The position numbers and the translations under genes were made by a program. The notes below the pieces were generated by a model that ran no database searches, was not told the origin of the DNA, and worked only from the letters and a program-made list of their open reading frames with translations. A DNA stretch of 64,000 nucleotides. It comes from Candidatus Undinarchaeota archaeon. Its GTDB lineage: Archaea > SpSt-1190 > DYHY01 > CAZGQF01. Below are positions 32,823 through 57,436 of the stretch, one piece after another (position 1 is the first letter of the stretch; the number at the start of each line of letters is the position of its first letter). The stretch is taken from contig CAZGQF010000001.1 of NCBI GenBank assembly GCA_964527545.1, positions 148,019 to 212,018 of the forward strand, in the 5' to 3' direction.

Positions 32823-32852
32823 TAATTTAAGGGGATAAGGGGGTGGGATGGC

Positions 32853-36975: not shown

Positions 36976-37026
36976 CGCCGTGGGGGGCGGGAGGCCACTA
37001 AAAGGTTTGCGCAGGGGGAGGCTTAT

Positions 37027-41439: not shown

Positions 41440-41441
41440 GG

Positions 41442-41463
41442 TTTTCGATAATTGTATCGAAAA
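41442..41463. promoter_or_regulatory. perfect 9-bp inverted repeat TTTTCGATA-ATTG-TATCGAAAA upstream of the KaiC-like operon
   Basis: Seen directly at 41442-41463, about 40 nt upstream of the ATG at 41505. Candidate operator or terminator hairpin. Confidence 0.3.
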
Positions 41464-41504
41464 CGGCAAAGCATTTATCCCGACCACCACTATAAGTCTA
41501 AATA

Positions 41505-42482
41505 ATGACGGAGCTGGTTGAGACAGGGATCCCCGGCCTCGACTCCCTGTTGAGGGGCGGCCTCCCTGAGGGGAGCTGTCTCCTCCTCATTGCGCCGCCA
41601 AAGGCCGAGACCCACCTGTTCTGCCTGGAGTTCCTCTACAGGGGGACGGAAATGGGCGAGCCAGCCCTGATGGTCACCATGGACAGCTCCCCTGAGATGC
41701 TGAAGAAGAAGGGGGGGAGCTACAGCTTCGACCTGGAGGCGAAAGAGGGGGAGGGCCTCTTCAAGTGGGTCGACGGCTACTCCATCCACTCCAACAAGGA
41801 CGTGGAGAGCACGGAGAACGTGGAGAGGGTAGGCGGGCCTATGGCGCTCACCGACACTTCGATAGCGCTCTCCAGGCTCCAGGCGCGGCTGCACGGGGAG
41901 CATGGCTACTACAGGTTCATCTTCGACTCAATCTCCACCCTCCTCATCTACAACTCGCCGGAGACTGTCTACAGGTTCCTTGAGGTCATAGTGGCAAAGA
42001 CGAGGTCGTCGGGCGGCGTCGGCTTCTTCGTCCTCGGCGAGGGGATGCACGACAAGAAGGTGGAGATGGTGATAAGGCACATGATGGACGGCACTGTCCA
42101 CATCAAGGACAACCTCGAGATAGAGGCGCTCAGCCTCCCGACTCCGGGCGAGCTGAAGAAAGGCGAGCTGAAGCTCTCAGAGGACGGCTTCAGCGTGGAG
42201 ATGGAAGAAGAGGAGGTGGAGAAGAGAAGCTGGAAAGAGGAGGTGGAGAAGATGGCGATGGCGAAGAAGGAAAAAACCGCGGAGGTGGGCGTCTGGGAGG
42301 ACTCCAAGAGGGGCGGCGTCGAGGATGTCCTAGAGAAGAACGCGGCGCCGGCCATCGAAGCGATAGGGGAGAAAAAGTTCACGGAAGAGGAGCTGGAGAG
42401 AATGCTGAAAAAGGAGAAGAAGGGAAAGGGGAGGAAGACTGTGGTCTCTGCCATTGAATCCAGGCTGGAGGAAGGAAAATGA
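41505..42482 (+). CDS. KaiC/RecA-like domain protein with degenerate Walker A and K/E-rich C-terminal tail
   Basis: N-terminus GIPGLDSLLRGGLPEGSCLLLIAPPKAETHLF has KaiC-like architecture, but the GxxxxGK[ST] is replaced by APPKAE. The tail ends ...EEELERMLKKEKKGKGRKTVVSAIESRLEEGK. Confidence 0.6.
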   Translation: MTELVETGIPGLDSLLRGGLPEGSCLLLIAPPKAETHLFCLEFLYRGTEMGEPALMVTMDSSPEMLKKKGGSYSFDLEAKEGEGLFKWVDGYSIHSNKDVESTENVERVGGPMALTDTSIALSRLQARLHGEHGYYRFIFDSISTLLIYNSPETVYRFLEVIVAKTRSSGGVGFFVLGEGMHDKKVEMVIRHMMDGTVHIKDNLEIEALSLPTPGELKKGELKLSEDGFSVEMEEEEVEKRSWKEEVEKMAMAKKEKTAEVGVWEDSKRGGVEDVLEKNAAPAIEAIGEKKFTEEELERMLKKEKKGKGRKTVVSAIESRLEEGK

Positions 42483-43651
42483 TAGCTCCAACAGGGATAG
42501 CGAAGCTGGACGAGCTCCTTGGGGGAGGGCTCTCCGCAGGTGAGCTGATGCTCTTCTGGAGCGGGCCGGGGATCGACTCGTCGCCCTTCCTCTACACCAT
42601 CATAAATGCCGCACTGGAGAGAAAGGAGAAAGTCGTCTACTTCACGCAGAACAAGGGCGAGGCTGCTGTCAGGAGGGAGATAGAGAGGTACGGCTTCTCG
42701 ACGGAAAACCTCCTCTTCATCGACGGCTACTCCGGACTCATCAACCAGCCCTCCAGCGCCAGGTACGTCGTGAAGAGGGCGAAGGACCCGAAAGACATCA
42801 CCAAGACTCTTGAGAGGGCGATGGAGGCAGGCCCTTCGCTCGTCGCCTTCGACTCCCTCTCCAGCCTCGTCGACGTCTGCGGCGAGAAAGCTCTGGAAGA
42901 GGTTGAAAAGTGGAAGAGGCTGCTCGAGGAGAAGGGGGCGGCTGCAGTCTTCCTCTTCACGGAGTGGCCCTACAATGAAAAGCTGCTCGAGATGGTAGGA
43001 GAGACTGCAGACACGATAGTCAGACTCGGTGCAGTCGAGAAGGAGGTCATCCACCAGAGGTTCTTCACGGTTGTCAAGAGGGACGGCAGCTGGGTCGACA
43101 GGGCAGGCGTCCCCTTTGAGATAGCCTCGCCGGGCGGCCTCCGCATAAGATTGCCCAAGATAGTGGTGACAGGGCCGGAGGGGAGCGGCAAGAGCACTTT
43201 CATACGCTCCGCCAGCAACTACTTTGTCGGAGCTGAAAGGGCGGGGACGACAGTGGGGATAGACTACGGAAAGGTCGACTACCACGGTTTCCGCGTCTCC
43301 CTCTTCGGGACGCCCAGCCACAAAAGGTTCGACGCCATACTGCCAGTGGTGGGGGCGGGCGCCATGGGAGCGATAGTCCTTGTCGACGCCACCCGGCCCG
43401 AGACATTACCCCACGCCGACATCTTCATCGAGAAGGCGGGACTGGAGGCGGTTCCCAGGATAGTGGTCTCCAACCACACAGGCCTCCCCGGCGCGCTCAA
43501 GCCTGAAAAGATAAGAAAGAAGATGGGGTTGAAAGGGGACACCCCTCTCATCGCGCTCACTGAAAGAGAGAAGAAGGGCGGCGAGCCGGCAGCCATGGAG
43601 ACCAAGGAGATCCACAAGGTGCTGGACGCCCTCTTCGAACAGGTGGTCTGA
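42479..43651 (+). CDS. fusion protein: KaiC-like domain (degenerate P-loop) plus C-terminal P-loop GTPase-like domain
   Basis: N-terminal GIAKLDELLGGGLSAGELMLFWSGPGIDSSPF has no Lys in the P-loop. C-terminal VVTGPEGSGKSTFI (G1), TTVGIDYG (switch I Thr), LFGTPS (G3-like), then a 116-aa tail. Start overlaps the upstream stop (ATGA). Confidence 0.55.
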   Translation: MIAPTGIAKLDELLGGGLSAGELMLFWSGPGIDSSPFLYTIINAALERKEKVVYFTQNKGEAAVRREIERYGFSTENLLFIDGYSGLINQPSSARYVVKRAKDPKDITKTLERAMEAGPSLVAFDSLSSLVDVCGEKALEEVEKWKRLLEEKGAAAVFLFTEWPYNEKLLEMVGETADTIVRLGAVEKEVIHQRFFTVVKRDGSWVDRAGVPFEIASPGGLRIRLPKIVVTGPEGSGKSTFIRSASNYFVGAERAGTTVGIDYGKVDYHGFRVSLFGTPSHKRFDAILPVVGAGAMGAIVLVDATRPETLPHADIFIEKAGLEAVPRIVVSNHTGLPGALKPEKIRKKMGLKGDTPLIALTEREKKGGEPAAMETKEIHKVLDALFEQVV

Positions 43652-44002
43652 ATGGAAAGGAAAAAGGACAGGATAAAAGGGATGCTCTCCAAGCTTGTCA
43701 GGGAGGAGGGTCTGGACGGGGCAGTGCTAATCTCGCGCGACGGGCTGGTGATAGTGACGGAAGGGAAGGAACTGGACGCCGTCGCCGCCATGACAGCAGT
43801 CGGCGTCGCCTCCCTCGAGACTGCGGCAAGCGAATGGAAGCTCGGACCTGTAGAGAAGGTGGAAGTGGAGACGCCTCAGCACATGATGGTGGTGGCCGAT
43901 GCCGGGCCAGAGGCGGTATTGGCTGTCGCAGTGAAGAAGGGGAGAGACGTCTCTGAGAAACTGAAAGGGGCAGGCAAGGAGATAGAGAAGGTGCTGGGCT
44001 GA
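43652..44002 (+). CDS. Roadblock/LC7 (MglB-like) domain protein
   Basis: 116 aa. GAVLISRDGLVIV...MTAVGVASLE...MVVADAGPEAVLAVAV follows the alpha-beta-alpha Roadblock pattern. Starts 1 nt after the GTPase-fusion stop. Confidence 0.7.
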   Translation: MERKKDRIKGMLSKLVREEGLDGAVLISRDGLVIVTEGKELDAVAAMTAVGVASLETAASEWKLGPVEKVEVETPQHMMVVADAGPEAVLAVAVKKGRDVSEKLKGAGKEIEKVLG

Positions 44003-44467
44003 ATGGCCATCAAGATCGACGTCGAGAAATACTCGCCAATCGCCAAGTTCCTCGGCCTCTCCGCCCTCGTCCTCGTTTTCCTCGCCTTCTTCAAGAGCCC
44101 GCCTCCGCCTGAAGAGTACGACGAAAGGTGCTTCTACGACCACTGCGTCGAGAGGTGCGGGGAGATGGAGTACCGCTTCGGCCGGTTCGACTACGGGGAG
44201 AGGGTGAGGTGCTTCTGCAAGACCAACATAACTGAGATCTCCGTCCAGCTCTACAGCCTGGACGGAAGCGAGTGCCCTCCAGTGACGAGGGACAGGAGGT
44301 GCGACGAGAGCTTCTGCGAAGAGACCTGCATGAAAGACGAGGGCTTCCTTCCCAACCACTCCTCCCTCGTCCTGGAGGACGGCTGGTACGTCTGCATCTG
44401 CCGCGACATGGATGTTGGCTGGTACGAGGAGGCCTACCACGTGGAGGCCTTTAAGTGCTCTTCCTGA
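44003..44467 (+). CDS. membrane-anchored Cys-rich extracytoplasmic protein
   Basis: N-terminal TM (FLGLSALVLVFLAFF), then 14 Cys in 120 aa (CFYDHCVERCGEMEY...CFCK...CDESFCEETC...). Start overlaps the Roadblock stop. Confidence 0.4.
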   Translation: MAIKIDVEKYSPIAKFLGLSALVLVFLAFFKSPPPPEEYDERCFYDHCVERCGEMEYRFGRFDYGERVRCFCKTNITEISVQLYSLDGSECPPVTRDRRCDESFCEETCMKDEGFLPNHSSLVLEDGWYVCICRDMDVGWYEEAYHVEAFKCSS

Positions 44468-44494
44468 AAGAAGTATTAATACTGCAAAGCGCTG

Positions 44495-47400
44495 TTGAAG
44501 GTCATGCGGGCCCAGGCAGCTCTGGAGTACCTCGTGATAGTTGGCATGATGCTCGCAATCCTCATCCCCGCCTTCTGGTACTCGCTCCGCACCTCGCAGC
44601 AGACTCTCGACCTGCGCCAGACAAAAGACGCAGCCCAGAAGGTGGCGAGGACGGCGGACACTGTCTACGCCCTCGGGCCGGGCTCGAGGATGTATGCCCG
44701 GATACGCCTCCCAGCCACTGTTGAGGACGAGCAGGTCGGAAACAACACCGTCCTCTTCCGCGTCGACGTCGGCCAGGGGCCGCAGGACATCTTCGAGCTG
44801 ACCAAGGGGGACGTGATAGGCGTGCTGCCTGAAGAGCGGGGAGAACACCGCGTACTTGTGAAGATGCTTGAGAGCGGCATCGTCCAGATAGGGGAGGCGA
44901 TCTCCTTGTCGCCCGACCCTTTCGAGGCGACCATAGCTCCCGGCGCTTGGAACGACTCCCTCTTCAACCTCTCCTCCAACGTCGACTACACAGTCTTCTC
45001 ACTCTCGCCCTCAATCTCGGGCGAGATAGAGAGCTGGGGGGTGATTGGGGCGGCGGACGCCCTGGTCTCATCGCTTTCCCCATACGGCTGGGACCTCTTC
45101 GACCTCAACATCTCCGTCCCGCCTTCACAGGCGGCCGGCACCTACGACGGCACGCTTCTCGTTTCCTCCAACCAGAGCGAGGCGACCTCCGCGATACAGA
45201 TCACAGTGCCTTCCGTGCTCAACTACCTCTTCATCGACATCTACGGCTATGAGATGGTGGGCGACATCGGCTTCGTGGTCTCCGGCGACCATCTCTCGCA
45301 GGACGAGAGGGAGGTTCTTGACTGGCTTGAGAGCGAGGAGAGCGGCGAAGGCTACCTCTGGGACTACGACATCATCTCAGACTCGCCCCCCTCCTCTCTC
45401 CGCAACCACTCCGCAGTCCCCCAGAGCTGGGAGGCGACCAGCGGCGGGAGCGGCTACTCCGAAGTCGTCTCGAGCGATGACATCTACGCGACCGCCACTG
45501 TCGCCCAGTACGCTACGGAGAACTTGACAGTCCACTTCCCTCCGCTCGGTCTCGAGAAAGACCCTGACAGCGTCAACTTCACGGCTGAGTACAGGATGAG
45601 CGCCACTGCAGGCTCCCCCTCCCAGGGCGAGTCCCAAGTCGACTCAATGGACGACGTATCGGACTGGAGCGAGGAGTACGGCGCGACCAACGGCGACTTC
45701 ACCACCGACTCGGGCACAAAGCAGGAGGGGACTGCCTCCATGGAGATAAGCTATGACTTCCCGGCGCCCGGCCCGTCCTCGAGCGAGGAGCTGACAGACG
45801 GCGGCTCGATCTCAGGGCCCTCCTCCGGCAGGATAACGGGCGGCGACCACACAGACACCCACTCCACGACAGACGGCGACTACTACTACCTCGGCTACGA
45901 GGTCAACGGCAACTGGAGGAGGAGGAACGGCTGGATGGAGCTGGAGTACGACATCTCTAGCCTGGGCATCGACCCGTCAGACCTGACAGACATCACTCTC
46001 GACGCCGACTTCTGCCACTCTGGGGACGAGACGTCGCCGGCCTGCGGACAGGGCGACGCGATGGAGGGCTTCCTCTGGGGCAGCCAGCTTGTCCAGGTCT
46101 ACGACCACGCCAACTCTGAATGGGACTCGCTCGGCTCCCTCTCCGTCAACACTGGAAGCGACGCGGAGCAGAGCGGGAGCTGGTCGGCATCATCGCCGCT
46201 CTCCAACTATGTCAGCGGCAGCGACACCGTCGACGTCAGGTTCGAGGTCGACTTCTACCTCGCCTGGACCTACGACGCCGTGCTCCTCTTGGACTACGTC
46301 CCCCTCTCACTCACATGGTCTGGCGGTTCGGAGACGCTCGACGAGTACGTCATCAAGAAGAGCTTCTCCCAGGAGGACTGGACAGGCTCCCAGAACCTCT
46401 CTGTCTGGGTCTACGGCGACGCCAACGGCGAGGACATCACGCTCAACATCACCGACTCCGGCGGGGGGAGCTATGAGTGGACGCCGCTCGACGTGAACTG
46501 GAGCGGCTGGCAGTGGAAAAAGTTCGACCTTTCCGGGACGAGCGGCGTCGACCTGTCGTCTGTCAACGGCGTCAAAATCAAGCTGGAAGAGACGGCGGCA
46601 GGCGACAACCCGTCCGGCACTCTCTACCTCGACGACCTCCGCAGGTTCTACACCGCGGGGGGCGGAAACTTCTTTTGCGACCTTCTCTGCCATGACGGCT
46701 CCTCCTGGACCGAGGTGGCGCCAGGGCTGGCCCAGACGTCAGACACCACCCAGCTCTGGGACGTGACCGCCTGCCTCTCGACAAAGGAGGAGGCAAACGA
46801 CGCAGACCTCAAGTTCTCCTGCTACAACGAGATCTCTTCCGGCCAGACGTTCTACCTCGACTACTCCCGGCTCGACGCCTCCTATCTCGGCCTGGCGTCA
46901 GGCGACGCTGAGAGCTGGAACACGTCGACCGGCGACTCAGGCTCGTCTGAAATCCAGTCAAGCAACGACGTCTACGCAGATGAGGAGATAACGCCGGAAG
47001 GGACGGAGAAGCTCGAAATCGACTTCCCAGACCTCGGCGTGACTGGCGCTCCCTTCTCTGTCAACACCACAGTGGAATACAGGTACAGCGACGTAGCCGA
47101 GGGAGGGAGGGAAGGCGGAAGCGACGTGGTCGACTATCTCAACCTCTTCCCCTCAGACAACCCAGTCAACGTCCAGCTCAACCAGCCCTTCAACCTGACA
47201 GTCACCCTCTGGGACCAGCAGGGCGATCCCGTGAGCGGGAAGGAGAGCTACTTCTCGGTCAACAGCATCAAGGACGACAACGGGGCCGCTGCCGCCTTCT
47301 CGACACAGCCCGCTCTCGAGTCGGAGCCAGGGAAGTACGCCATCGAGATAACTATGACCTCCGGGAACGACGGAGCGACCTACTACGTCAACGGCGAGTA

Positions 47401-48838
47401 CCTGGAGGGGAGCGTGCCCGACAGGTACCAGATGTGGTGGCACGGGACAGTCAACCTCAACGAGAGCGCCAAGACGGGCGTGGCCTGGGTCTTCCTGCCG
47501 GAGACTGACTTCGTGACGCTTCCCTCGACCGGCGGGACCATCAACCTCAAGCTCTACTGCATCGACCAGACAAGCTCCCCGCTCAACTCCCTCTCGACCA
47601 CAGACTTCAAGATCTCCAATGTCAAGAGCGAGACGGGGAGCGCAGTGGGCGGCTGGAGCCAGGGGACTGTCACTTTCGAAGGCGACGGCATCTACAAAAT
47701 ACCTATCACGTTCTCCTCCCTCCCTGAGGGCGAAAACCTCTTCCTAAGGGGGAACTGGAAAGAGCTGAACAAGGAGATCGACTTCGGCGCCTCTTTCTTC
47801 GTCAACTCGTCAGATCCATACGCCCCCGCGCCAGACAACCCCTACGTGCCAGGCTCTCCGGCGGCCGGCCTTGAGTGTGAGCTGGAGTGCAGGGGAGAGG
47901 GCGGCTGGTCTTCACTCGGCCCCCTCCCCCAGAACGACAGCGACACTCTCGCGACCTTCTCACTCGACTCCTGCGTCTCCACACAGGCCATCGCCAACGA
48001 CATCCACACCCGCTTCAACTGCACCAACCACTTCTCCGACAACGCAACGCTCTACGTCGACTACGCCAACGTCAGCGTCGGCTATGTCGGCGAGGAGAGC
48101 TGGAATGAACTGAACGAGACAGACCTCTGCGGCTACGGGGCGATAATGGTGGGAGAGCACGAGAGCTCGCTCGACGCGGCGCTCCTCGACTTCCTCGACG
48201 ACTGCGGCTGCGTGATGCTTGTGGGAGAGGCGGCCGCCTCCGCCCCTGTCTCTCTCGGATACGCCAACTCGAGCTTCTCAGGGCTCAACTCCACGCTCTA
48301 CGTGGTCGACGACTCAAACTACGTGACGGCCAACTACTCCAACTCCTCGCTCGTCTCCGTCTACTCGCAAAGCGACATGATGTGGGGGTCGGACGCAGAC
48401 GGCGTTCTCGCCACCGCCGAGGGCAACACTCTCGGCGAGGACGGCAGATTGATGTACTACGGCGTCAGGACGCAGCACCTCTCTTCAGACGGAAACAACA
48501 CTCTGACCCGCTTCGTGGACAGGTGCCTCTCCAAGTCGGTTACGCCAGGCACTCTCGAAGAGAAGAGCGATTTCAGGAAAAACGAGGTCATCGTCTACCG
48601 CATCTCCCTCAGAGACCAGGGCCTCTCTCCCGCAGACTCAAGCGACGTCGACTCGTGGGTCTGGATGGCGAACGGGACGCTGGCCTACCAGAGACTCGAT
48701 GCCTCGACGTCCGGGGGCGCCCTCCAGGAGAGCTACACCATTCCCTCCAGCGGGCCGTCCGGGACGTGGACAGTCAACGCGACCGCCGCAGGGCCGTACT
48801 CCTCTGTCCAGAACTCCACGACATTCGAGGTCGCATAG
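44495..48838 (+). CDS. giant (1447 aa) pilin-headed surface protein / putative adhesin, N-glycosylation sequon-rich
   Basis: N-terminus MKVMRA/QAALEYLVIVGMMLAILIPAF is a class III signal peptide. The rest is low in charged and high in S/T/N/D/G residues, with dozens of N-x-S/T sequons. No TM elsewhere. Confidence 0.6.
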   Translation: MKVMRAQAALEYLVIVGMMLAILIPAFWYSLRTSQQTLDLRQTKDAAQKVARTADTVYALGPGSRMYARIRLPATVEDEQVGNNTVLFRVDVGQGPQDIFELTKGDVIGVLPEERGEHRVLVKMLESGIVQIGEAISLSPDPFEATIAPGAWNDSLFNLSSNVDYTVFSLSPSISGEIESWGVIGAADALVSSLSPYGWDLFDLNISVPPSQAAGTYDGTLLVSSNQSEATSAIQITVPSVLNYLFIDIYGYEMVGDIGFVVSGDHLSQDEREVLDWLESEESGEGYLWDYDIISDSPPSSLRNHSAVPQSWEATSGGSGYSEVVSSDDIYATATVAQYATENLTVHFPPLGLEKDPDSVNFTAEYRMSATAGSPSQGESQVDSMDDVSDWSEEYGATNGDFTTDSGTKQEGTASMEISYDFPAPGPSSSEELTDGGSISGPSSGRITGGDHTDTHSTTDGDYYYLGYEVNGNWRRRNGWMELEYDISSLGIDPSDLTDITLDADFCHSGDETSPACGQGDAMEGFLWGSQLVQVYDHANSEWDSLGSLSVNTGSDAEQSGSWSASSPLSNYVSGSDTVDVRFEVDFYLAWTYDAVLLLDYVPLSLTWSGGSETLDEYVIKKSFSQEDWTGSQNLSVWVYGDANGEDITLNITDSGGGSYEWTPLDVNWSGWQWKKFDLSGTSGVDLSSVNGVKIKLEETAAGDNPSGTLYLDDLRRFYTAGGGNFFCDLLCHDGSSWTEVAPGLAQTSDTTQLWDVTACLSTKEEANDADLKFSCYNEISSGQTFYLDYSRLDASYLGLASGDAESWNTSTGDSGSSEIQSSNDVYADEEITPEGTEKLEIDFPDLGVTGAPFSVNTTVEYRYSDVAEGGREGGSDVVDYLNLFPSDNPVNVQLNQPFNLTVTLWDQQGDPVSGKESYFSVNSIKDDNGAAAAFSTQPALESEPGKYAIEITMTSGNDGATYYVNGEYLEGSVPDRYQMWWHGTVNLNESAKTGVAWVFLPETDFVTLPSTGGTINLKLYCIDQTSSPLNSLSTTDFKISNVKSETGSAVGGWSQGTVTFEGDGIYKIPITFSSLPEGENLFLRGNWKELNKEIDFGASFFVNSSDPYAPAPDNPYVPGSPAAGLECELECRGEGGWSSLGPLPQNDSDTLATFSLDSCVSTQAIANDIHTRFNCTNHFSDNATLYVDYANVSVGYVGEESWNELNETDLCGYGAIMVGEHESSLDAALLDFLDDCGCVMLVGEAAASAPVSLGYANSSFSGLNSTLYVVDDSNYVTANYSNSSLVSVYSQSDMMWGSDADGVLATAEGNTLGEDGRLMYYGVRTQHLSSDGNNTLTRFVDRCLSKSVTPGTLEEKSDFRKNEVIVYRISLRDQGLSPADSSDVDSWVWMANGTLAYQRLDASTSGGALQESYTIPSSGPSGTWTVNATAAGPYSSVQNSTTFEVA

Positions 48839-48874
48839 AACATCAGATAAATATCAGCGGAGAGTCTCCCTGGC

Positions 48875-49252
48875 ATGGCAGGACAGAGCTCTCTTGAAAG
48901 CTTGGTCAGCATAGGGTTCATGCTCTTCCTCTTCACCTCCACCCTTGCAGTCGCCTACCAGAAGGAAAGGGAGACATCGCGAGTTGGGGAGTTCCTGGCC
49001 AACCGGACCGACTGCGACGCAATCGCCCTTGAGGTGGCCGCGGTCTTCACGAGCGGGGAAGGAACGAGGACCGTCAGGAAGATCGGCAGGAGAGCGGAGG
49101 TCTACGGCGATGCAGGCCAGATAGTGGTGGGCGACGTCTTCTGCCTGACCATTGCCAACGTCACCAACGGCACCCACAGCAGCTTCACGCTGGAGGAGGG
49201 CGAAGTGGAGATCCTCTCCCTTGGCAGGGAGGTGAGAGTAAGGAATGTCTAG
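48875..49252 (+). CDS. minor pilin-like protein (class III signal peptide MAG/QSSLESLVSIGFMLFLF)
   Basis: 125 aa. Prepilin-like N-terminus with Q+1 and E+5. Confidence 0.5.
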   Translation: MAGQSSLESLVSIGFMLFLFTSTLAVAYQKERETSRVGEFLANRTDCDAIALEVAAVFTSGEGTRTVRKIGRRAEVYGDAGQIVVGDVFCLTIANVTNGTHSSFTLEEGEVEILSLGREVRVRNV

Positions 49253-49718
49253 GGGACAGTCCGTGATGCTCGACTTCCTGCTGGCCGCCTTCGTCTTCAG
49301 CGTCGTCTTCTCAGCAGTGATGCTCTCCCTCCGCAACGTCCAGGAGACCTTCGACGCGGAAGAGAGGAGGTGGAGGATACAGAGGGGTGCCATACAGGCG
49401 GCCGACGTCCTTGTGAAGAGCAGGGGTGTGCCCTTCAACTGGAATGAAAGAGAGACAAGGCTTCCCGGCCTCAAGTCGATGGGGCGTTCCCTGGAGAGCG
49501 GCAAGCTCTCCGCCTTCGAAGGCCTCGACTATGAGGAGACGAAGGAGATGCTCGGGCTGGAAGGCCTGGAGTACAGAGTAGAAGTGAAGGGCAACGAGAC
49601 CTCCATGAGCATGGGAAGGCCGGAGAGCGGCGACCTGCGCGTCGCATCGACAAGGGTAGCCCTCCATAACGGCGAGCCCGTCTTCCTCAAAGTCACAGTC
49701 TGGGAGGGTAAAGGATGA
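49245..49718 (+). CDS. minor pilin-like protein (MSRG/QSVMLDFLLAAFVFSVVF)
   Basis: 157 aa. Overlaps the upstream gene by 8 nt. Prepilin-like N-terminus. Confidence 0.5.
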   Translation: MSRGQSVMLDFLLAAFVFSVVFSAVMLSLRNVQETFDAEERRWRIQRGAIQAADVLVKSRGVPFNWNERETRLPGLKSMGRSLESGKLSAFEGLDYEETKEMLGLEGLEYRVEVKGNETSMSMGRPESGDLRVASTRVALHNGEPVFLKVTVWEGKG

Positions 49719-50158
49719 GCAGGGGCTATGTCTTCAGCTACGACGCGGCGCTGGGGACGCTCCTCGCCATAATCATACTCTGGGCGGTCCTCTGGGAGCT
49801 CCGACTGCCCGGCGTCCTCTCGGAGGTCCAGGTCGTGCGGAGGGCCAACGACGCCCTCGAGGTCCTCATAGAGGGTGGGACCATGGAAAGCATGGAAGAA
49901 GGGACGATTGAGGAGGGGATGGAAAAGCTCCTCCCCCGGAACTACCGCTTTCGCCTCCTCGTCTCTTCCCACTCCCACTCTGGCAGCGGCTTCGAAGTTG
50001 AAGAGAGCGTGAGCGTGGGAGATAATCTGCCGCTGGAGAGGCTCGACCCAGAGACCGCGACGCCGCTCCCCTTCAGAACGGAGAGGACTTTCGTGACCCT
50101 CTCCGGCAACGAAATAGAGTCCTACCACCGGGCGACGATGTGGGTGTGGCTGGAATGA
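49715..50158 (+). CDS. minor pilin-like protein (MSRG/YVFSYDAALGTLLAIIIL)
   Basis: 147 aa. ATGA overlap with the upstream gene. Prepilin-like N-terminus. Confidence 0.45.
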   Translation: MSRGYVFSYDAALGTLLAIIILWAVLWELRLPGVLSEVQVVRRANDALEVLIEGGTMESMEEGTIEEGMEKLLPRNYRFRLLVSSHSHSGSGFEVEESVSVGDNLPLERLDPETATPLPFRTERTFVTLSGNEIESYHRATMWVWLE

Positions 50159-50952
50159 GCAGGGGTATACTCTTCACAGTCAGCCTTACTCTCATCTCGC
50201 TGGTCGTCTTCTCCTTCGCCTCCACGATAATGGGCGGCTACGAAGAGAAGCGGGGAGAGGAGGCCCAGCTTTTGGTCGTGGAGAGGGTGGGCAGGACTTA
50301 CGACAACCTCGAATGGAACGTGAGGGAGATCTTCTCCACCAGCGGTGTGGAGACCGCCTTCTACGGAGACGTGGTCTCTTTCACTGAAGAGCTCCCCAAC
50401 GAAGAGTCCGTTGACTTCGTCCAGAACGTCGAGCGCTACGCGGAGTTTGCGGAGAAAAAGGGCGTCGATCTGGAGACGGACGAGATGACGGAGTATCTCA
50501 CCCTCAGGGTGGAGCCATACGGAGGCCTCTACTCGCACGAAGACTATGGCGGCAATGATCTCTTCTTCAGCTCCCCCCAGACTCCAGAGCTCTACCGATT
50601 CCACATCACCCTCTCAGACGGCGGCCTCCAGCGGATAGACTGGGATCCGTACGAGTCGGGAAGCCTCCCCGTCAACATCTATGTCCAGGGACAGCAGTCC
50701 GGAAACGAAACAAGGCTTATTAACCCCTCTGGGCTCACTGTGGCAAACGTAACGCTTAACGGCAACAGGGGGGTCATAAGCATCCGTTTTGAGGGCGGGA
50801 ACATGACAGCGACCAGCTACGTCAGCAGCACTGTGGAGATTCAGACCAACGTTACAGTGGATGAAGTCTCCAAAATCGTCCTCCCTGGAGCGCTGAAAGT
50901 GTGGGTGCCCGGGACGGGGGCCAGCAGGAACAGCACTGCGAGGGTGGTGTGA
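50140..50952 (+). CDS. minor pilin-like protein (MSRG/ILFTVSLTLISLVVFSF), sequon-rich
   Basis: 270 aa. Overlaps the upstream gene by 19 nt. Prepilin-like N-terminus. Confidence 0.45.
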   Translation: MGVAGMSRGILFTVSLTLISLVVFSFASTIMGGYEEKRGEEAQLLVVERVGRTYDNLEWNVREIFSTSGVETAFYGDVVSFTEELPNEESVDFVQNVERYAEFAEKKGVDLETDEMTEYLTLRVEPYGGLYSHEDYGGNDLFFSSPQTPELYRFHITLSDGGLQRIDWDPYESGSLPVNIYVQGQQSGNETRLINPSGLTVANVTLNGNRGVISIRFEGGNMTATSYVSSTVEIQTNVTVDEVSKIVLPGALKVWVPGTGASRNSTARVV

Positions 50953-52544
50953 TGGCCAACTCCAAGAAGAGGGAGAACCTGGAGAAGCTGAAGGAGGGGA
51001 TCAAGGATGAGCCCTCCGGTAAAAGCGGATTCAGGCTCGAGAAGCTCTTCGACATAGGGACCTATGCAAGCCTCGTGGAGAGGTTCACCTCACACGAGGA
51101 GCCGGACCCGAAACCCAGGAAGCTGAAGCTGAAAGAGACGGTAGAGAACTTCTTCGACAAGAACGCAAAACCCACCATAGAGGCGGTCGAGTCAGGGAGG
51201 TTCGACAAGGAGGAGCTTGAGGAGCTTCTAGATCACGAGAGAGAAAACAAAGAAAGGAAGACCGTTTTGGGGGTGATAGAGTCGAAGCTGGGGGAGATGG
51301 AGACCGTCGAGGACTTCTTCGACAAGAACGCTAAGCCCACCATAGAGGCGGTCGAGTCAGGGAGGTTCGACAAGGAGGAGCTAGAAGAGCTTCTAGAGCA
51401 CGAAAAAGAAGAGAAAGAGAGAAAGACAGTCGTCTCGGCGATAGAGTCGAAGCTGGAGGAGATGGAGACCGTCGAGGACTTCTTCGACAAGAATGCGGAG
51501 CCCACCATAGAGGCGGTCGAGTCAGGGAGGTTCGACAGAAAAGAGCTGAAAGAGCTGCTTGAACACGAGAGGGAGGGGAAGGAGAGAAAGACAGTCGTCT
51601 CGGCGATAGAGTCGAAGCTGGGGGAGATGGAGACCGTCGAGGACTTCTTCGACAAGAACGCTAAGCAGATCATAGAGGCCGTGGAGGGGGGCAGGTTCAG
51701 CGACGAGGAGCTCGAAGAATTGCTGAGGCACGAGAGAGAGGGGAAGGAGAGAAAGACCGTTTTGGGGGTGATAGAGGCGGTCATCGGCGAGCTGCCCCCT
51801 GAAGCTGAAGAGAGAATTGGCAGGATACGCTACCAGGTCGAAGTGGAGAGGGGGAGGAGAGAAGGCAAGACGGAAGTCGAAGTCGTTGACATCGAGGAGA
51901 GAGAAGAGTGGCGCGGGGGCATAGGCGGCCACAAGGCAGAGGTCGCAGAGGAAGGGAAAGAGAACTTCGTCGCGCGGATCTTCGAGGAAAGAAAAGAGAG
52001 AAAGGAAGGTCTCCTCTCCAAGCTGGTCAGAAAGGTGAAGAGTCTCTTCGGCCTCCCCAAGGAAGAAAAGGAAGAGCTCGAGGAGGTGGAAGGGGGGATC
52101 ATCAGGCCGGGCGCGGAGGTGGTGGTCAAGCTCGAGGAGGTTGAGGGCTGGGAGGAGAGCGGCAGGAAGAGTGAAGGCGTGGAGGAGCAAGGAGAGAGGG
52201 CTGAGGTAGGAGAGTCGTCAAAACAGGAGGCAGAATGTGCTGATGAACAGGCGAACAGGAGAAAGGTGGAGGAGTGGGACGTCAGCGACATCTCCCTCTC
52301 TGAAGCGAGCGAGAAGCTGGTCACTGGGATCGACAAGCTTTTCTTCATAGTCAAGAAAAAGGAAGGGGTGGGGCTCGAGGCGGCGGCCGGAATGCTGGGC
52401 GTTACGCGCGGCAAAGTAGACGAATGGGCAAAGATACTGGAAGACGAGGGGCTCATCACAATTCACTATCCGGCGGTGGGCGAGCCCAAGCTGGTCCCAA
52501 AGAACGAGACAAGGGGTGGGAGCCACGAAATCGAAGGAGATTGA
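50952..52544 (+). CDS. cytoplasmic repeat protein (4.x copies of a 55-aa K/E-rich repeat) with C-terminal winged-helix-like domain
   Basis: ATG at 50952 overlaps the upstream TGA. Repeats ETVEDFFDKNAKPTIEAVESGRFDKEELEELLEHEREGKERKTVVSAIESKLGEM. C-terminus VTGIDKLFFIVKKKEGVGLEAAAGMLGVTRGKVDEWAKILEDEGLITIHYP. No TM. Confidence 0.5.
   Translation: MANSKKRENLEKLKEGIKDEPSGKSGFRLEKLFDIGTYASLVERFTSHEEPDPKPRKLKLKETVENFFDKNAKPTIEAVESGRFDKEELEELLDHERENKERKTVLGVIESKLGEMETVEDFFDKNAKPTIEAVESGRFDKEELEELLEHEKEEKERKTVVSAIESKLEEMETVEDFFDKNAEPTIEAVESGRFDRKELKELLEHEREGKERKTVVSAIESKLGEMETVEDFFDKNAKQIIEAVEGGRFSDEELEELLRHEREGKERKTVLGVIEAVIGELPPEAEERIGRIRYQVEVERGRREGKTEVEVVDIEEREEWRGGIGGHKAEVAEEGKENFVARIFEERKERKEGLLSKLVRKVKSLFGLPKEEKEELEEVEGGIIRPGAEVVVKLEEVEGWEESGRKSEGVEEQGERAEVGESSKQEAECADEQANRRKVEEWDVSDISLSEASEKLVTGIDKLFFIVKKKEGVGLEAAAGMLGVTRGKVDEWAKILEDEGLITIHYPAVGEPKLVPKNETRGGSHEIEGD
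51136..51795. repeat. 165-bp tandem direct repeat, 4 full copies plus a partial (51136, 51301, 51466, 51631)
   Basis: agaccgtcgaggacttcttcgacaagaa recurs exactly every 165 bp. Copies are about 85-95% identical, in-frame and coding. Confidence 0.85.
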
Positions 52545-54051
52545 CCGCTACGAGCTCGAGGTCGACAACGTCAAGGCAGAGATAAGAATCGTGGCCGGGG
52601 AAGACCTCGTCACACTCTACAAAGTGACAGTCAAGAAGCCGGACGTTGCCACGCGCGCGCTGCTCAACGAAGTCCGCTCCGAGCTGGTCTCTGAGGTGAG
52701 CTTCGGGGGGAGGGAGATACTCAACCCGGAGGCGATAGAGGAGCTCAAGAAGAAGTTCAAGCAGAAGGCTGAGGAGCTGCTTTCAGAGCACCTTCCCGAC
52801 ATAAAGGAGATCGACAGGGACTTCCTGATAGGCCACCTCCTCCATGAGATGCTCGGGCTCGGGAAGCTGGAGATCATACTGTCCGACCCCGAGCTTGAGG
52901 ACCTCGGCGTCAACTGTGCGGAGGAGCCCATCTGGCTCTACCACAAGAAGTACGGATGGCTGAAGACTGATGTCTACTTGGAGAGCGAGGACGAGATAGA
53001 GAATTTGATGAACATAATCGCCCGCAGGGTGGGGAGGTCGATAACCATCCGGGACCCCCTCCTGGATGCCCACCTCCTGAAAGGCGACCGTGTAAACGCA
53101 ACCCTCTACCCCATCTCCACCAAGGGGAACACCATAACCATCAGGAAGTTCTCGGAGAGGCCCTGGACCATCACAGACTTCCTCCAGAACGGCACGACCA
53201 GCAAGGAGGCCGCGGCCCTCGTCTGGCTGGCCATGCAGTACGAGCTGAACATCCTCATCTCCGGCGGCACCGCCTCCGGCAAGACCAGTTTCCTCAACGT
53301 CTGCATGCCCTTCATACAGCCCAACCACCGCATCGTCTCCATAGAGGACACCCGCGAAATCAAGCTCCCTGATTTCCTCTACTGGACCCCTTTTACCGTG
53401 CGCGAGCCAAACCCTGAGGGAAAGGGCGGAGTAACCATGCTCGAACTCATGGTCAACGCGCTCCGCACCAGGCCGGACAGGATAGTGGTGGGAGAGATAA
53501 GGCGCTCCAGGCAGGCAGAGGTCCTCTTCGAGGCGATGCACACAGGCCACAGCGTCTACTCCACGCTGCACGCCGACACCGCCGCCCAGACGGTGCGCCG
53601 CCTCATAAACCCGCCCATCGAGATACCTGAGACGATGCTGGACTCCGTCCACCTAAACGTGGTCATGTTCAGGGACAGGAGGAGGGGCATCCGCAGGACG
53701 CTGGAGGTTGCCGAGCTGGTCCCCACCGGCGAGATGGGGACGGGCTTCAAGATTAACGACATCTTCAAGTGGAAGCCGCGCGGAGACCGCATAGTCTCCC
53801 ACTCAGACAGCATCAGACTGCTGGAGGAGATAAATCTCCACACCGCAATGACGGAGAAGGAGATAGAAGAGGACATCGAGGAGAAGGAGAGGATTCTCTC
53901 CTGGCTCTCCAGGAACAACATAAAAAACGTCAACGCGGTGGGCAGGACGGTGGCCGAGTACTACAAGGACCACGACATGACAGTCGCCCAGATAGAGAGG
54001 AACGTCTCGCCCGAGAAGCTGCTTGGGGATGAGGTAGAGCTCCATGCCTGA
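52516..54051 (+). CDS. type IV pilus/archaellum assembly ATPase (FlaI/TadA/GspE family)
   Basis: GTG start. Walker A GGTASGKTS, Walker B DRIVVGEIR, His-box TLHAD. N-terminal domain of about 200 aa. Overlaps the downstream membrane gene by 8 nt. Confidence 0.85.
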   Translation: MGATKSKEIDRYELEVDNVKAEIRIVAGEDLVTLYKVTVKKPDVATRALLNEVRSELVSEVSFGGREILNPEAIEELKKKFKQKAEELLSEHLPDIKEIDRDFLIGHLLHEMLGLGKLEIILSDPELEDLGVNCAEEPIWLYHKKYGWLKTDVYLESEDEIENLMNIIARRVGRSITIRDPLLDAHLLKGDRVNATLYPISTKGNTITIRKFSERPWTITDFLQNGTTSKEAAALVWLAMQYELNILISGGTASGKTSFLNVCMPFIQPNHRIVSIEDTREIKLPDFLYWTPFTVREPNPEGKGGVTMLELMVNALRTRPDRIVVGEIRRSRQAEVLFEAMHTGHSVYSTLHADTAAQTVRRLINPPIEIPETMLDSVHLNVVMFRDRRRGIRRTLEVAELVPTGEMGTGFKINDIFKWKPRGDRIVSHSDSIRLLEEINLHTAMTEKEIEEDIEEKERILSWLSRNNIKNVNAVGRTVAEYYKDHDMTVAQIERNVSPEKLLGDEVELHA

Positions 54052-54934: not shown

Positions 54935-54938
54935 AAGA

Positions 54939-56355: not shown

Positions 56356-56401
56356 GGGAGGAATAGCCCCCAGACAGTATTAATGCTTTCCAATGGGGCG
56401 C

Positions 56402-56860: not shown

Positions 56861-56948
56861 GGAAAAAGACTGCTGTATCGACTATTAATGTTTTGGCAGA
56901 AAAAAGGAAGAGAAGGGAGGCCGGGGCCTCCCGTTCACAGCGTCAGGG

Positions 56949-57389: not shown

Positions 57390-57436
57390 AGGCATTTCCC
57401 GCATTCCCAATATTAATCTCTTCCGGAAAAGGATAA

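What the first reader, a model, noticed from the sequence alone, without database searches (positions are those of the whole stretch)
41505..43651. Two KaiC-like domains with degenerate Walker A motifs next to one canonical KaiC (FlaH-like) ATPase
The 57437 protein has an intact GGPGTGKST P-loop. The KaiC-like domains of the 41505 and 42479 proteins retain the surrounding architecture (GIPGLD/GIAKLD ... hydrophobic strand) but replace GxxxxGK[ST] with APPKAE and SGPGIDSSPF, which have no catalytic Lys. They look like nucleotide-hydrolysis-dead scaffold paralogs. A pseudo-ATPase/ATPase relationship would fit a regulatory or assembly-platform role, analogous to how FlaH modulates FlaI.
Basis: seen in the sequence. 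Interest (0 to 1): 0.6.

Follow-up and report, generated by a model that had tools for sequence, protein, structure and literature searches.

The report
Dead KaiC-like proteins in GTPase switch module
Two neighbouring archaeal genes encode KaiC-like proteins that have lost their ATP-binding loop, and they belong to a widespread, uncharacterised module (KaiC-like protein, KaiC-like/small-GTPase fusion, Roadblock protein, often a working KaiC) that in this genome flanks a type IV pilus gene cluster.

Summary
Both proteins (41505-42482, 42479-43651) are KaiC/RecA-fold homologues. Their Walker A positions read APPKAETH and SGPGIDSS, with no catalytic Lys. KaiC-like protein, iKaiC-GTPase fusion and Roadblock form a cassette found in 343 loci across Archaea. 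The fusion's KaiC domain lacks a P-loop in every member examined (0/86 and 0/120). The stand-alone partner ranges from intact to dead, and this lineage sits at the dead end. Its G domain has also lost G3 (GTPGQ to GTPSH) and G4 (NKxD to NHTG). In 10 of 21 loci from close relatives, a canonical KaiC of the 57437 type accompanies the dead iKaiC. This supports the proposed ATPase/pseudo-ATPase pairing, but not FlaH membership. In this window the module brackets a Tad/Epd-like pilus cluster. Protein 1's tail shares a 55-aa repeat with the protein encoded beside the pilus ATPase. The most likely function is a nucleotide-switch scaffold controlling pilus assembly, which is inferred and not shown. 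Inactivated KaiC domains and MglA/MglB pairs are known; this combination appears undescribed in the literature I could read.

The parts
41440..41504 (+). AT-rich intergenic leader with a TATA-like 'gcatttatcc' about 35 nt before the ATG; putative promoter of the operon
   Evidence: Direct reading of the sequence; function inferred, not tested.
41505..42203 (+). Stand-alone inactivated KaiC-like (iKaiC) RecA-fold core of protein 1 (aa 1-233). Walker A equivalent is APPKAETH at 41592-41615.
   Evidence: Pfam KaiC 1.3e-20, DUF7504 6.7e-15, DUF7090. Model core aligns to PH0284 with TM 0.82. Motif table. Motif coordinates checked by translation.
42204..42482 (+). Lys/Glu-rich helical tail of protein 1. 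Residues 272-323 (nt 42318-42473) are one copy of the 55-aa repeat also found in p547.
   Evidence: BLASTP E 2e-12 with 50-62% identity. phmmer iE 8e-13. Nucleotide repeat family D2. Helices 272-324 at pLDDT about 72-84.
42479..43144 (+). iKaiC domain of the fusion protein (aa 1-222). Walker A equivalent is SGPGIDSS at 42560-42583. The start overlaps the stop of protein 1 (ATGA).
   Evidence: Pfam KaiC 1.3e-15. Foldseek to PH0284 gives TM 0.84, rmsd 2.4 Å. 0/86 and 0/120 family members have GxxxxGK[ST] here. Junction read.
43145..43651 (+). MglA-type small G domain of the fusion (aa 223-390). G1 GPEGSGKS is at 43172-43195, G3 GTPSH at 43307-43321, G4 NHTG at 43472-43483.
   Evidence: NCBIfam small_GTP 2.2e-8. 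Family profile hits Arl/Arf/Rab structures at about 1e-16. Motif tables. Motif coordinates checked.
43652..44002 (+). Roadblock/LC7 (MglB-type) protein of 116 aa. Its start abuts the fusion's stop (TGAATG).
   Evidence: Pfam Robl_LC7 6.6e-12. Best solved relative is CvnB5 3leq at 8.6e-7. A Roadblock gene is present in 76 of 85 related loci. Junction read.
44003..44467 (+). 154-aa membrane-anchored Cys-rich protein that abuts the Roadblock stop. Conserved in the closest relatives (L001, L002).
   Evidence: Junction. phmmer hit of 215 bits in L001 and L002. No Pfam family.
44495..48838 (+). 1447-aa protein with a class III (pilin-type) signal peptide (RAQAALEYL...) and a C-terminal MG2-like domain
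   Evidence: Translation. Pfam MG2 5.9e-6, below cut-off. Orthologue follows the cassette in L001.
49245..50952 (+). Three small pilus-locus genes, the first a DUF7287 pilin-like protein
   Evidence: Pfam DUF7287 8.3e-5. A homologous gene sits in the L019 pilus locus.
50952..52544 (+). p547: four tandem 55-aa repeats (nt 51135-51757), an acidic linker and a C-terminal wHTH-like segment. Encoded immediately upstream of, and overlapping, the pilus ATPase gene.
   Evidence: TRF period 165, 3.8 copies, 85% matches. Translation. The C-terminus resembles the N-terminal extension of the L019 ATPase only weakly (pairwise E 8e-4, 25% identity). That extension hits Pfam HVO_A0114 at 4e-7.
52516..54051 (+). 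FlaI/TadA-like secretion ATPase of the pilus system
   Evidence: Pfam T2SSE 6.9e-37. NCBIfam FlaI model gives 302 bits, below the 550 cut-off.
54044..55910 (+). Two TadB/TadC-like platform proteins, each with one T2SSF domain
   Evidence: Pfam T2SSF 4.4e-19 and 3.2e-15.
55912..57404 (-). Three tandem paralogous pilin genes (N-termini RGQSALEYLMTYGW)
   Evidence: Translations. phmmer among paralogues gives 130-318 bits.
57437..58159 (+). Canonical single-domain KaiC ATPase (GGPGTGKST). Likely the module's only hydrolysis-competent RecA-type subunit.
   Evidence: Pfam KaiC 3e-58. NCBIfam KaiC_arch_3 gives 160 bits and ArlH only 49.5 against a 215 cut-off. Homologues lie beside the dead iKaiC in 10 of 21 related loci.

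Best explanation
The two genes are the first two cistrons of a conserved archaeal nucleotide-switch module.

**Parts of the module**
1. A stand-alone KaiC-like RecA-fold protein. Its P-loop is intact in some lineages and dead in this one.
2. A fusion of an anciently inactivated KaiC-like domain to an MglA-type small G domain.
3. One or more Roadblock/MglB proteins.
4. In this lineage, a canonical single-domain KaiC ATPase (here the 57437 protein).

**Shown**
- The domain identities and the motif states.
- The translationally coupled gene order.
- The wide conservation of the cassette.
- The recurrent pairing of the dead iKaiC with a canonical KaiC.
- The erosion of G3 and G4 in this lineage.
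- The placement of the module on both sides of a Tad/Epd-like pilus cluster.
- The 55-aa repeat shared between the iKaiC tail and the protein encoded next to the pilus ATPase.

**Inferred mechanism**
- The RecA-fold domains assemble into a hetero-oligomeric platform, as KaiC-family proteins form hexamers. The canonical KaiC would supply the only ATP-turnover sites.
- The G domains displayed on that platform act as the switch and are read or regulated by Roadblock dimers, as MglB does for MglA.
- In this genome the output is assembly or positioning of the pilus machinery. Contact may run through the shared repeat in p547 and the pilus ATPase.
- Because G3 Gly/Gln and G4 Lys/Asp are gone while G1 and G2 remain, the G domain here probably binds a nucleotide with relaxed base specificity and hydrolyses poorly or not at all. 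It would then behave as a binding-regulated pseudo-switch rather than a timer.
For: **Domain identity**
- Pfam, NCBIfam and PDB matches.
- Structure models and Foldseek matches.
- G-domain profile against PDB and Roadblock against PDB.

**Operon coupling**
- An ATGA overlap and two TGAATG junctions.

**Conservation**
- 343 loci in GTDB species genomes encode the fusion, across Altiarchaeota, DPANN, Bathyarchaeia, Thermoproteota, Archaeoglobi, Methanoperedens/ANME-2, Methanocellales and Methanobacteriaceae.
- Roadblock is present in 76 of 85 loci, and a KaiC-like partner lies within 100 nt in 61 of 85.
- Protein 1 scores a median 61.7 bits to these partners, against 0 for the fusion N-domain and the canonical KaiC.

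**Motif states**
- Fusion N-domain Walker A Lys: 0/86 and 0/120. G1 intact: 86/86 and 115/120.
- Partner P-loop: 25 intact, 44 Lys kept with Ser/Thr lost, 12 Lys lost, of which 9 are the window clade.

**G domain type**
- G3 GTPGQ plus a coupled MglB is the published signature of MglA groups 2-5 (PMC4316618).
- Erosion series: GTPGQ/NKAN (L086, L102), then GTPGH/NHTG (L090), then GTPSH/NHTG (window, L001).

**Canonical KaiC pairing**
-.

**Pilus link**
- Same-strand gene run from 41505 to 55910.
- Same layout in L001.
- The cassette sits inside a homologous pilus locus in a Nanoarchaeota MAG, L019, whose FlaI scores 525 bits.
- A FlaI homologue lies 7 kb from the cassette in L010.
- Pilin-like genes lie next to the cassette in Methanobacteriaceae.
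- Shared 55-aa repeat.
- Makarova 2016 reports KaiC ATPases and Roadblock arCOG02603 in archaeal T4P loci (PMC4858521).

**Selection**
- dN is 0.27-0.37 with dS saturated between the window and L001.
Against: - No interaction, oligomeric state, nucleotide binding or phenotype was tested. Every mechanistic step is by analogy.
- Pilus genes accompany the cassette in only a few of about 106 related loci (window, L001, L019, L010, plus pilin-like genes in Methanobacteriaceae). In Methanoperedens it sits among housekeeping genes, and in L086 among dCache/HAMP sensor genes. The pilus output is therefore lineage-specific at best.
- In this window the canonical KaiC lies 13.4 kb from the cassette, not adjacent to it.
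- The 55-aa repeat is unique to this genome among everything examined. It could be a neutral recent duplication.
- The similarity between the p547 C-terminus and the L019 ATPase extension is weak (E 8e-4).
- Loss of G3 and G4 does not prove loss of hydrolysis. A partner could supply catalytic residues in trans.
Confidence: 0.55

Rival explanations
1. The two dead KaiC paralogues are FlaH-like assembly-platform subunits that, with the 57437 KaiC, bind and modulate the FlaI-like pilus ATPase. The GTPase domain and Roadblock are incidental.
For: - All the genes lie in one 17-kb pilus-associated region.
- Dead iKaiC and canonical KaiC are recurrently adjacent in relatives.
- KaiC-family ATPases are known associates of archaeal T4P loci (PMC4858521).
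Against: - None of the three proteins reaches ArlH/FlaH model cut-offs.
- The genes are 9-11 kb from the ATPase gene, not adjacent as arlH is to arlI.
- The invariant partners across 85 loci are the G domain and Roadblock, while FlaI is present in only 2.
- ArlH needs an intact Walker A to bind ATP (my own knowledge), and that motif is absent here.
Confidence: 0.15
2. A general-purpose KaiC/GTPase signalling hub with no specific connection to the pilus. The adjacency to pilus genes in this genome is a rearrangement accident, and the real inputs and outputs are encoded elsewhere.
For: - Most related loci lack pilus genes within 8 kb.
- Neighbours differ by lineage: housekeeping genes in Methanoperedens, dCache/HAMP sensors in L086, and DUF2226/DUF11 with multi-Roadblock proteins in L102.
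Against: - There is tight same-strand coupling, with abutting junctions at 44002/44003 and a 27-nt gap before the giant pilin-like gene.
- The layout is conserved in L001.
- An independent embedding in a homologous pilus locus occurs in L019.
- The iKaiC tail and the ATPase-adjacent p547 share a repeat.
Confidence: 0.25
3. The G domain is still a working GTPase switch despite GTPSH/NHTG. Roadblock or a neighbouring subunit supplies catalytic residues in trans, and base recognition is achieved differently.
For: - G1 (GPEGSGKS) and the G2 region (R-x-G-TT) are intact and nearly invariant in the family.
- Some Rup GTPases lack the G3 Gln and are proposed to receive it in trans (PMC4316618).
- The Roadblock gene is retained and keeps its conserved D-G pair (SRDGL).
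Against: - The G3 Gly that contacts the gamma-phosphate and the G4 Lys and Asp that bind guanine are all replaced.
- The same positions vary in several other branches of the family, which is consistent with relaxed constraint on catalysis.
Confidence: 0.3
4. The genes are decaying pseudogenes or mis-called ORFs in a GC-rich genome.
For: Long antisense ORFs overlap the region, for example 41969-43321 on the minus strand.
Against: - The antisense ORFs have no family matches.
- The plus-strand genes have significant homologues.
- The models are confident (pLDDT 85-89).
- The reading frames are intact.
- Orthologues at 57-65% identity have dN far below saturated dS.
Confidence: 0.02

Closest known systems
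Inactivated KaiC-like (iKaiC) domains of archaeal signalling proteins (DUF835, MEDS, iKaiC-REC), as defined by Makarova, Galperin and Koonin 2017 and cited in Galperin 2018 (PMC5847659)
   Same: KaiC-homologous RecA-fold domains with disrupted ATPase motifs, found in archaeal regulatory contexts. Protein 1 and its relatives also hit the DUF7504 and DUF7090 models.
   Different: Here one iKaiC is fused to a small G domain. Both are tied to Roadblock genes and a canonical KaiC. I could not read the 2017 paper, so I cannot say whether this architecture is listed there.
MglA/MglB polarity switch of Myxococcus xanthus and Thermus thermophilus, and MglA groups 2-5 (Wuichet and Sogaard-Andersen 2014, PMC4316618)
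   Same: - A small G domain with G3 GTPGQ lacking the usual Asp.
- An adjacent Roadblock/MglB gene with a conserved D-G pair.
- MglA and SofG regulate type IV pilus ATPases in Myxococcus.
   Different: - The G domain is fused to an iKaiC domain, and that survey covered single-domain GTPases only.
- In this lineage G3 and G4 are eroded (GTPSH, NHTG).
- By profile, the closest solved G domains are Arf/Arl rather than MglA.
ArlH (FlaH)-ArlI of the archaellum
   Same: A single-domain KaiC-like protein that works with a FlaI-type ATPase in a type IV filament system.
   Different: - ArlH model scores are far below cut-off for all three proteins.
- ArlH binds ATP through an intact Walker A (my own knowledge).
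- The genes here are not adjacent to the ATPase gene.
- The locus is Tad/Epd-like (split TadC-type genes, no other arl genes), not an archaellum.
Actinobacterial conservon (CvnA-D)
   Same: A multi-gene G-protein module with an MglB-type Roadblock (CvnB) and an MglA-group GTPase (CvnD). The window's Roadblock is most similar to CvnB5 among solved structures.
   Different: The conservon uses a histidine-kinase-like CvnA and a DUF742 CvnC rather than KaiC-like proteins, and it is bacterial.
PH0284 (2dr3), PH0186 (2zts) and the KaiC CI domain
   Same: The best structural and sequence neighbours of both iKaiC domains (TM 0.79-0.85). PH0284 crystallises with six chains.
   Different: Those proteins keep GxxGxGK[ST] and the catalytic Glu residues.
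Eukaryotic Elp4/5/6 and Rad51-paralogue complexes (from my own knowledge)
   Same: RecA-fold subunits with degenerate or absent P-loops that form hetero-oligomeric rings or complexes with or around active subunits. There is a weak PAXNEB (Elp4) hit over the N-terminal 28 residues.
   Different: No specific homology beyond the RecA superfamily, and no G domain or Roadblock partner.

Membership tests
KaiC / RecA-superfamily ATPase (Pfam PF06745) | Significant match to the family model above the gathering score | tested here: met
   74.2 bits (protein 1) and 57.9 bits (protein 2) against a cut-off of 26.6.
KaiC / RecA-superfamily ATPase (Pfam PF06745) | RecA-like alpha/beta fold | tested here: met
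   AlphaFold models superpose on PH0284 and KaiC CI at TM 0.79-0.85 and rmsd 2.4-3.0 Å.
KaiC / RecA-superfamily ATPase (Pfam PF06745) | Walker A GxxxxGK[ST] | tested here: not met
   APPKAETH and SGPGIDSS occupy the aligned position. They are homologues but not active members.
KaiC / RecA-superfamily ATPase (Pfam PF06745) | Catalytic Glu pair after strand 2, and the Walker B Asp | tested here: inconclusive
   The Glu pair is replaced (TMDSS, FTQNK), but the Walker B Asp is retained (FIFDS, VAFDS).
KaiC / RecA-superfamily ATPase (Pfam PF06745) | Hexameric ring assembly | not testable with these tools
   No multimer prediction or biochemistry was available.
iKaiC (inactivated KaiC-like domain) | KaiC homology combined with disrupted nucleotide-binding or catalytic motifs, conserved among orthologues | tested here: met
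   0/86 and 0/120 fusion members and all 21 close relatives of protein 1 lack the Walker A Lys. The concept is cited in PMC5847659.
ArlH / FlaH | Score above the NCBIfam ArlH/FlaH cut-offs | tested here: not met
   Protein 1 scores 15.6 and protein 2 scores 21.5 (cut-off 194). The 57437 protein scores 49.5 (cut-off 215).
ArlH / FlaH | Gene adjacent to arlI/arlJ within an archaellum operon | tested here: not met
   The genes lie 9-11 kb upstream of the FlaI-like gene. The locus has split TadB/C-type genes and no other arl genes.
MglA-family small GTPase (groups 2-5) | G1 P-loop GxxxxGK[ST] | tested here: met
   GPEGSGKS. The motif is intact in all 86 locus-derived members.
MglA-family small GTPase (groups 2-5) | G3 GTPGQ (no Asp, catalytic Gln present) | tested here: not met
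   The family consensus is GTPGQ (about 80/86 and 80/120), but the window reads GTPSH. The family fits the signature; this member is a degenerate derivative.
MglA-family small GTPase (groups 2-5) | G4 NKxD guanine-specificity motif | tested here: not met
   NHTG in the window, L001, L090 and P0002/P0003. NKxD or NKxN elsewhere.
MglA-family small GTPase (groups 2-5) | Coupled MglB/Roadblock gene | tested here: met
   The Roadblock gene abuts the fusion. Roadblock is present in 76 of 85 related loci.
MglA-family small GTPase (groups 2-5) | Single-domain protein of about 160-200 aa | tested here: not met
   390-aa two-domain fusion. The model has pTM 0.82, and a single strand (aa 220-231) runs from the iKaiC domain boundary (aa 222) into the G domain.
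MglB / Roadblock-LC7 | Roadblock/LC7 domain with the conserved Asp-Gly pair | tested here: met
   Pfam Robl_LC7 6.6e-12. 'SRDGL' is read directly in the translation. The criterion comes from PMC4316618.
MglB / Roadblock-LC7 | GAP activity on, or binding to, the cognate G domain | not testable with these tools
   Requires biochemistry or multimer modelling.

The most novel reading that the evidence does not exclude
Archaea may have a widespread, previously uncharacterised hybrid switch in which KaiC-type RecA rings and MglA/MglB-type G-protein signalling are physically fused. On this reading, the Altiarchaeota-related lineage studied here has stripped the device of three of its four NTPase sites. 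It would be powered by one canonical KaiC and wired to a type IV pilus machine through a lineage-specific 55-aa repeat. That would make it an archaeal counterpart of the bacterial MglA/MglB control of pilus ATPases, built largely from pseudo-enzymes.
Probability: 0.25. Interest if true: 0.75.

Novelty: new variant of a known kind. Interest (0 to 1): 0.55.

Why it matters
Regulation of archaeal surface filaments is poorly understood, and so is the role of the many KaiC paralogues in archaea. This locus gives a concrete, testable unit: a KaiC-like protein, an iKaiC-MglA fusion, Roadblock and a canonical KaiC. The fusion-based cassette is found in 343 loci across most archaeal phyla. Natural variants range from apparently active to almost fully pseudo-enzymatic.

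Three consequences would follow if the module is a switch acting on pili or other targets:

- It would link the proposed KaiC signalling hubs to small-GTPase signalling.
- It would provide an archaeal parallel to MglA/MglB.
- It would offer a natural series for studying how NTPase modules turn into scaffolds.

Members in Methanobacteriaceae (Methanobacterium, Methanothermobacter MAGs) and Methanosarcinales may be experimentally reachable.

Tried and rejected
- **Second P-loop.** I searched both proteins for another GxxxxGK[ST]. The only one is in the G domain of protein 2.
- **Defence system.** Rejected. PADLOC gave only P-loop-level hits to mad8.
- **Antisense ORFs** (41969-43321, 43727-44848 and others). 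No family matches, so they were treated as GC-rich artefacts.
- **ArlH/FlaH membership.** Rejected on scores.
- **Source contig look-up.** Exact look-ups of the window's proteins failed, and cluster names were empty. Taxonomy was instead inferred from EF-2. The nearest named relatives are Candidatus Altiarchaeota at 61%.
- **dN/dS against L001.** Uninformative because dS is saturated.
- **Literature.** The key paper on iKaiC (Makarova 2017, PMC5717392) is not held. Searches for the KaiC-GTPase-Roadblock combination found no description. The supplement of Makarova 2016 is truncated.
- **p547 relatives.** The metagenome scan found none.
- **Roadblock versus p547.** The similarity covers only 17 residues at E 0.001 and is too weak to use.


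Full report
**1.

The window has two overlapping plus-strand genes, 41505-42482 (325 aa) and 42479-43651 (390 aa). Both match Pfam KaiC above threshold, at E 1.3e-20 and 1.3e-15, and both match solved KaiC and PH0284 chains.

- **Walker A.** In those alignments the Walker A position reads APPKAETH in protein 1 and SGPGIDSS in protein 2. The Lys is replaced by Thr and Ser respectively (coordinates verified).
- **Other motifs.** The catalytic Glu pair is also gone, while the Walker B Asp remains.
- **Fold.** AlphaFold models (pLDDT 84.7 and 89.2) superpose on the RecA-superfamily ATPase PH0284 at TM 0.82-0.84.
- **57437 protein.** It is a canonical single-domain KaiC (GGPGTGKST; 3e-58).

**2.

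- Residues 223-390 of protein 2 form a small G domain with an intact P-loop, GPEGSGKS.
- The next gene, 43652-44002, encodes a Roadblock/LC7 protein (6.6e-12).
- The junctions are ATGA, TGAATG and TGAATG. The first four genes are therefore translationally coupled.
- The same-strand run continues through a 1447-aa pilin-like protein, minor pilin-like genes, a FlaI/TadA-like ATPase and two TadB/C-like genes to 55910. Three pilin genes on the opposite strand and the canonical KaiC follow.

**3. The fusion is an old and widespread family.**

- Thirty database homologues and 343 loci in GTDB species genomes encode the same ~390-aa architecture.
- The taxa include Altiarchaeota, Woese/Nanoarchaeota, Bathyarchaeia, Thermoproteota, Archaeoglobaceae, Methanoperedens/ANME-2, Methanocellales and Methanobacteriaceae.
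- In 86 aligned members, none has a Walker A Lys in the KaiC-like domain. The consensus there is P-[GE]-[VI]-[ED]-x-x-x-F, and all 86 keep the G-domain P-loop.
- The same holds for 120 full-length representatives out of 1.84 billion clustered proteins: 0/120 and 115/120.
- The inactivation is therefore ancestral to the family, not a local decay.

**4. The neighbours are conserved.**

- Clustering all ORFs of 85 loci shows only two shared families beyond the fusion itself. These are KaiC-like proteins and Roadblock, the latter in 76 of 85 loci.
- A stand-alone KaiC-like gene lies within 100 nt on the same strand in 61 loci, often overlapping the fusion's start.
- Protein 1 belongs to this partner family. 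Its median score to the partners is 61.7 bits, against 0 for the fusion N-domain or the canonical KaiC as query.
- The partner's P-loop shows a gradient:

| Partner P-loop state | Count | Example lineages |
|---|---|---|
| Fully intact (GPPLVGKS, GPPKVGKS, GETGTGKT) | 25 | Archaeoglobaceae, Methanobacteriaceae, Bathyarchaeia |
| Lys kept, Ser/Thr replaced by Glu/Asp (27 of these also have Walker B Asp to Asn) | 44 | Methanoperedens, ANME |
| Lys lost | 12 (9 from the window's clade, [ATS]PPxxE) | Window clade and a few others |

**5. The ATPase/pseudo-ATPase idea gains support from closer relatives.**

- I examined 21 loci carrying 49-63%-identical, P-loop-dead relatives of protein 1.
- Ten of them carry a canonical single-domain KaiC scoring 96-131 bits to the 57437 protein. 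In nine it lies within 188 nt of the dead iKaiC.
- Roadblock genes, often several, sit just upstream, and the fusion is present on the longer contigs.
- On a 1.56-Mb contig (L102) the order is: fusion, Roadblock, DUF2226/MarR, DUF11, 185-aa protein, Roadblock, two larger Roadblock-containing proteins, dead iKaiC, then a convergent canonical KaiC.
- In L086 a canonical KaiC directly precedes the fusion, and dCache/HAMP sensor genes lie between Roadblock and the dead iKaiC.
- In this lineage the unit therefore has four parts. In the window they sit on the two sides of the pilus cluster.
- This makes the 57437 protein a component of the module rather than a FlaH of the pilus. It also fails the ArlH model, at 49.5 bits against a 215 cut-off.

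**6. The G domain.**

- The family's G3 is GTPGQ and it has a coupled Roadblock gene. That is the published signature of MglA groups 2-5, Asp being conserved in the G3 of all other GTPases (PMC4316618).
- That survey considered only single-domain GTPases and found no conserved neighbours for the archaeal group 4.
- By profile, the closest solved structures are Arl/Arf/Rab at about 1e-16.
- Roadblock is closest to the conservon protein CvnB5.
- In the window and its nearest relatives, G3 is GTPSH and G4 is NHTG. Intermediates exist: GTPGQ/NKAN in L086 and L102, and GTPGH/NHTG in L090.
- Other branches also show scattered G3 and G4 changes.
- From established GTPase biochemistry, the G3 Gly contacts the gamma-phosphate, the G3 Gln is catalytic, and the G4 Lys and Asp bind guanine.
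- My inference is nucleotide binding with relaxed specificity and little hydrolysis. This is not shown.

**7. Link to the pilus.**

- Apart from the operon layout, the closest relative L001 has the same order: iKaiC, fusion, Roadblock, 156-aa protein, giant pilin-like protein.
- A Nanoarchaeota MAG (L019) has the fusion and Roadblock directly after a homologous pilus cluster: pilin, DUF7287, FlaI at 525 bits, and two T2SSF genes.
- L010 has a FlaI homologue 7 kb from the cassette.
- Methanobacteriaceae loci have pilin-like genes just upstream of the cassette.
- Most other loci have none, so the link is lineage-specific.
- A new observation bears on this. The tail of protein 1 (aa 272-323) is a copy of a 55-aa repeat present four times in p547. 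That gene overlaps the start of the pilus ATPase gene. The evidence is BLASTP E 2e-12, phmmer iE 8e-13, and a 165-nt tandem array at 51135-51757.
- The repeat was found nowhere else among the sequences held.
- The p547 C-terminus weakly resembles the wHTH-like N-terminal extension of the L019 ATPase.
- A shared module between the iKaiC and an ATPase-associated protein is what a physical bridge would look like. It could equally be a neutral duplication.

**8. Mechanism.**

- **Shown:** the domain identities, motif states, gene coupling, conservation patterns and co-localisations.
- **Inferred by analogy:**
  - The RecA-fold domains hetero-oligomerise into a platform in which only the canonical KaiC turns over ATP.
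  - Roadblock binds the G domains displayed on the platform.
  - The assembled state controls the pilus ATPase or platform in this genome, and other targets elsewhere.
- I put 0.55 on this composite. Confidence is much higher for the identity of the parts than for the mechanism.

**9. Comparison with what is known.**

- Inactivated KaiC domains are an established concept.
- MglA/MglB pairs are well studied.
- KaiC ATPases and Roadblock proteins have been noted in archaeal T4P loci.
- The following appear in none of the literature I could search:
  - the fused iKaiC-MglA architecture;
  - its conserved cassette;
  - the graded loss of NTPase sites;
  - the pairing of dead and live KaiC;
  - the shared repeat.
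- I could not read the 2017 paper that defines iKaiC. I therefore rate the novelty as a new variant of a known kind, with that caveat.

**10. Organism.**

EF-2 is 61% identical to Candidatus Altiarchaeota sequences and 57-58% identical to Woesearchaeota and Methanocaldococcus. The fusion's best GTDB matches are Altiarchaeales at 44-46%. The window therefore comes from an uncultured, deep-branching archaeon near Altiarchaeota.

Noticed in passing
window 51135-51757 and 42318-42473: A 165-nt (55-aa) tandem repeat occurs 3.8 times in the gene upstream of the pilus ATPase, and a fifth, diverged copy forms the C-terminal tail of the stand-alone iKaiC. It has no Pfam family and was found in no other held sequence.
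   Followed up: partly
window 43652-43706 vs 51981-52035: The first 17 residues of the Roadblock protein resemble p547 residues 361-377 (59% identity, 73% at nucleotide level over 44 nt, E 0.001). This is too short to interpret.
   Followed up: partly
window 44495-48838: A 1447-aa protein with a pilin-type class III signal peptide and a weak C-terminal MG2 (alpha-2-macroglobulin-like) domain. It may be a giant pilus-tip adhesin. An orthologue follows the cassette in L001.
   Followed up: partly
window 55912-57404 (minus strand): Three tandem paralogous pilin genes. The mechanical ORF 56949-57590 is over-extended; the real start is probably near 57404 (MREMPMKRGQSALEYL), so it does not overlap the KaiC gene. 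Weaker pilin-like matches lie at 62468-63430 and 9950-10555 on the minus strand.
   Followed up: partly
window 31006-37581: Cluster of Cys-tRNA genes: CysRS (31006-32427, minus), tRNA-Cys (32660-32731), a SepCysS/SepSecS-like aminotransferase (34287-35462), and a class II PheRS-alpha/SepRS-type synthetase (35455-37581, minus). The syntenic gene in relative L087 carries the SepRS_C domain. Both direct and indirect Cys-tRNA routes may be present.
   Followed up: no
L034, L048, L055-L075 and other Methanoperedens/ANME loci: In the stand-alone partner, replacement of the Walker A Ser/Thr by Glu/Asp (GPPMSGKE) goes together with Walker B Asp to Asn in 27 of 44 cases. This looks like a coordinated remodelling of the Mg-binding site rather than random decay.
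   Followed up: partly
L007, L008, L015-L018, L035, L039, L086, L087, L102: Many DPANN/Altiarchaeota-type fusions have G4 NKxN instead of NKxD. In engineered GTPases this Asp-to-Asn change switches specificity towards xanthine nucleotides (my own knowledge). The natural ligand may therefore not be GTP.
   Followed up: no
L102 6397-9947; L087 5888-7003; L092/L094 (438-aa ORF); L105 (660-aa ORF): Relatives carry runs of two to four Roadblock genes, and larger proteins (324 and 677 aa) with embedded Roadblock domains, between the fusion and the dead iKaiC.
   Followed up: partly
L043, L045, L057, L063, L067, L076 (Methanobacteriaceae): A different cassette order: degenerate partner (GDxFSGKD), Roadblock, fusion, then two tandem P-loop-intact KaiC-like genes (GPPKVGKS). 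Two pilin-like genes lie just upstream in at least one locus (L076; one each was also detected in L057 and L063).
   Followed up: partly
window 39923-40819 and 44003-44467: Two Cys-rich predicted extracytoplasmic proteins flank the cassette. One is a 298-aa secreted protein with CxxC-rich acidic repeats. The other is a 154-aa membrane-anchored protein conserved in L001 and L002.
   Followed up: no
window 17640-23550 and 12200-14395: Housekeeping block with RpoA', split RpoB (B' and B'') and EF-2. tRNA-Lys and tRNA-Asp lie at 23784-23962.
   Followed up: no
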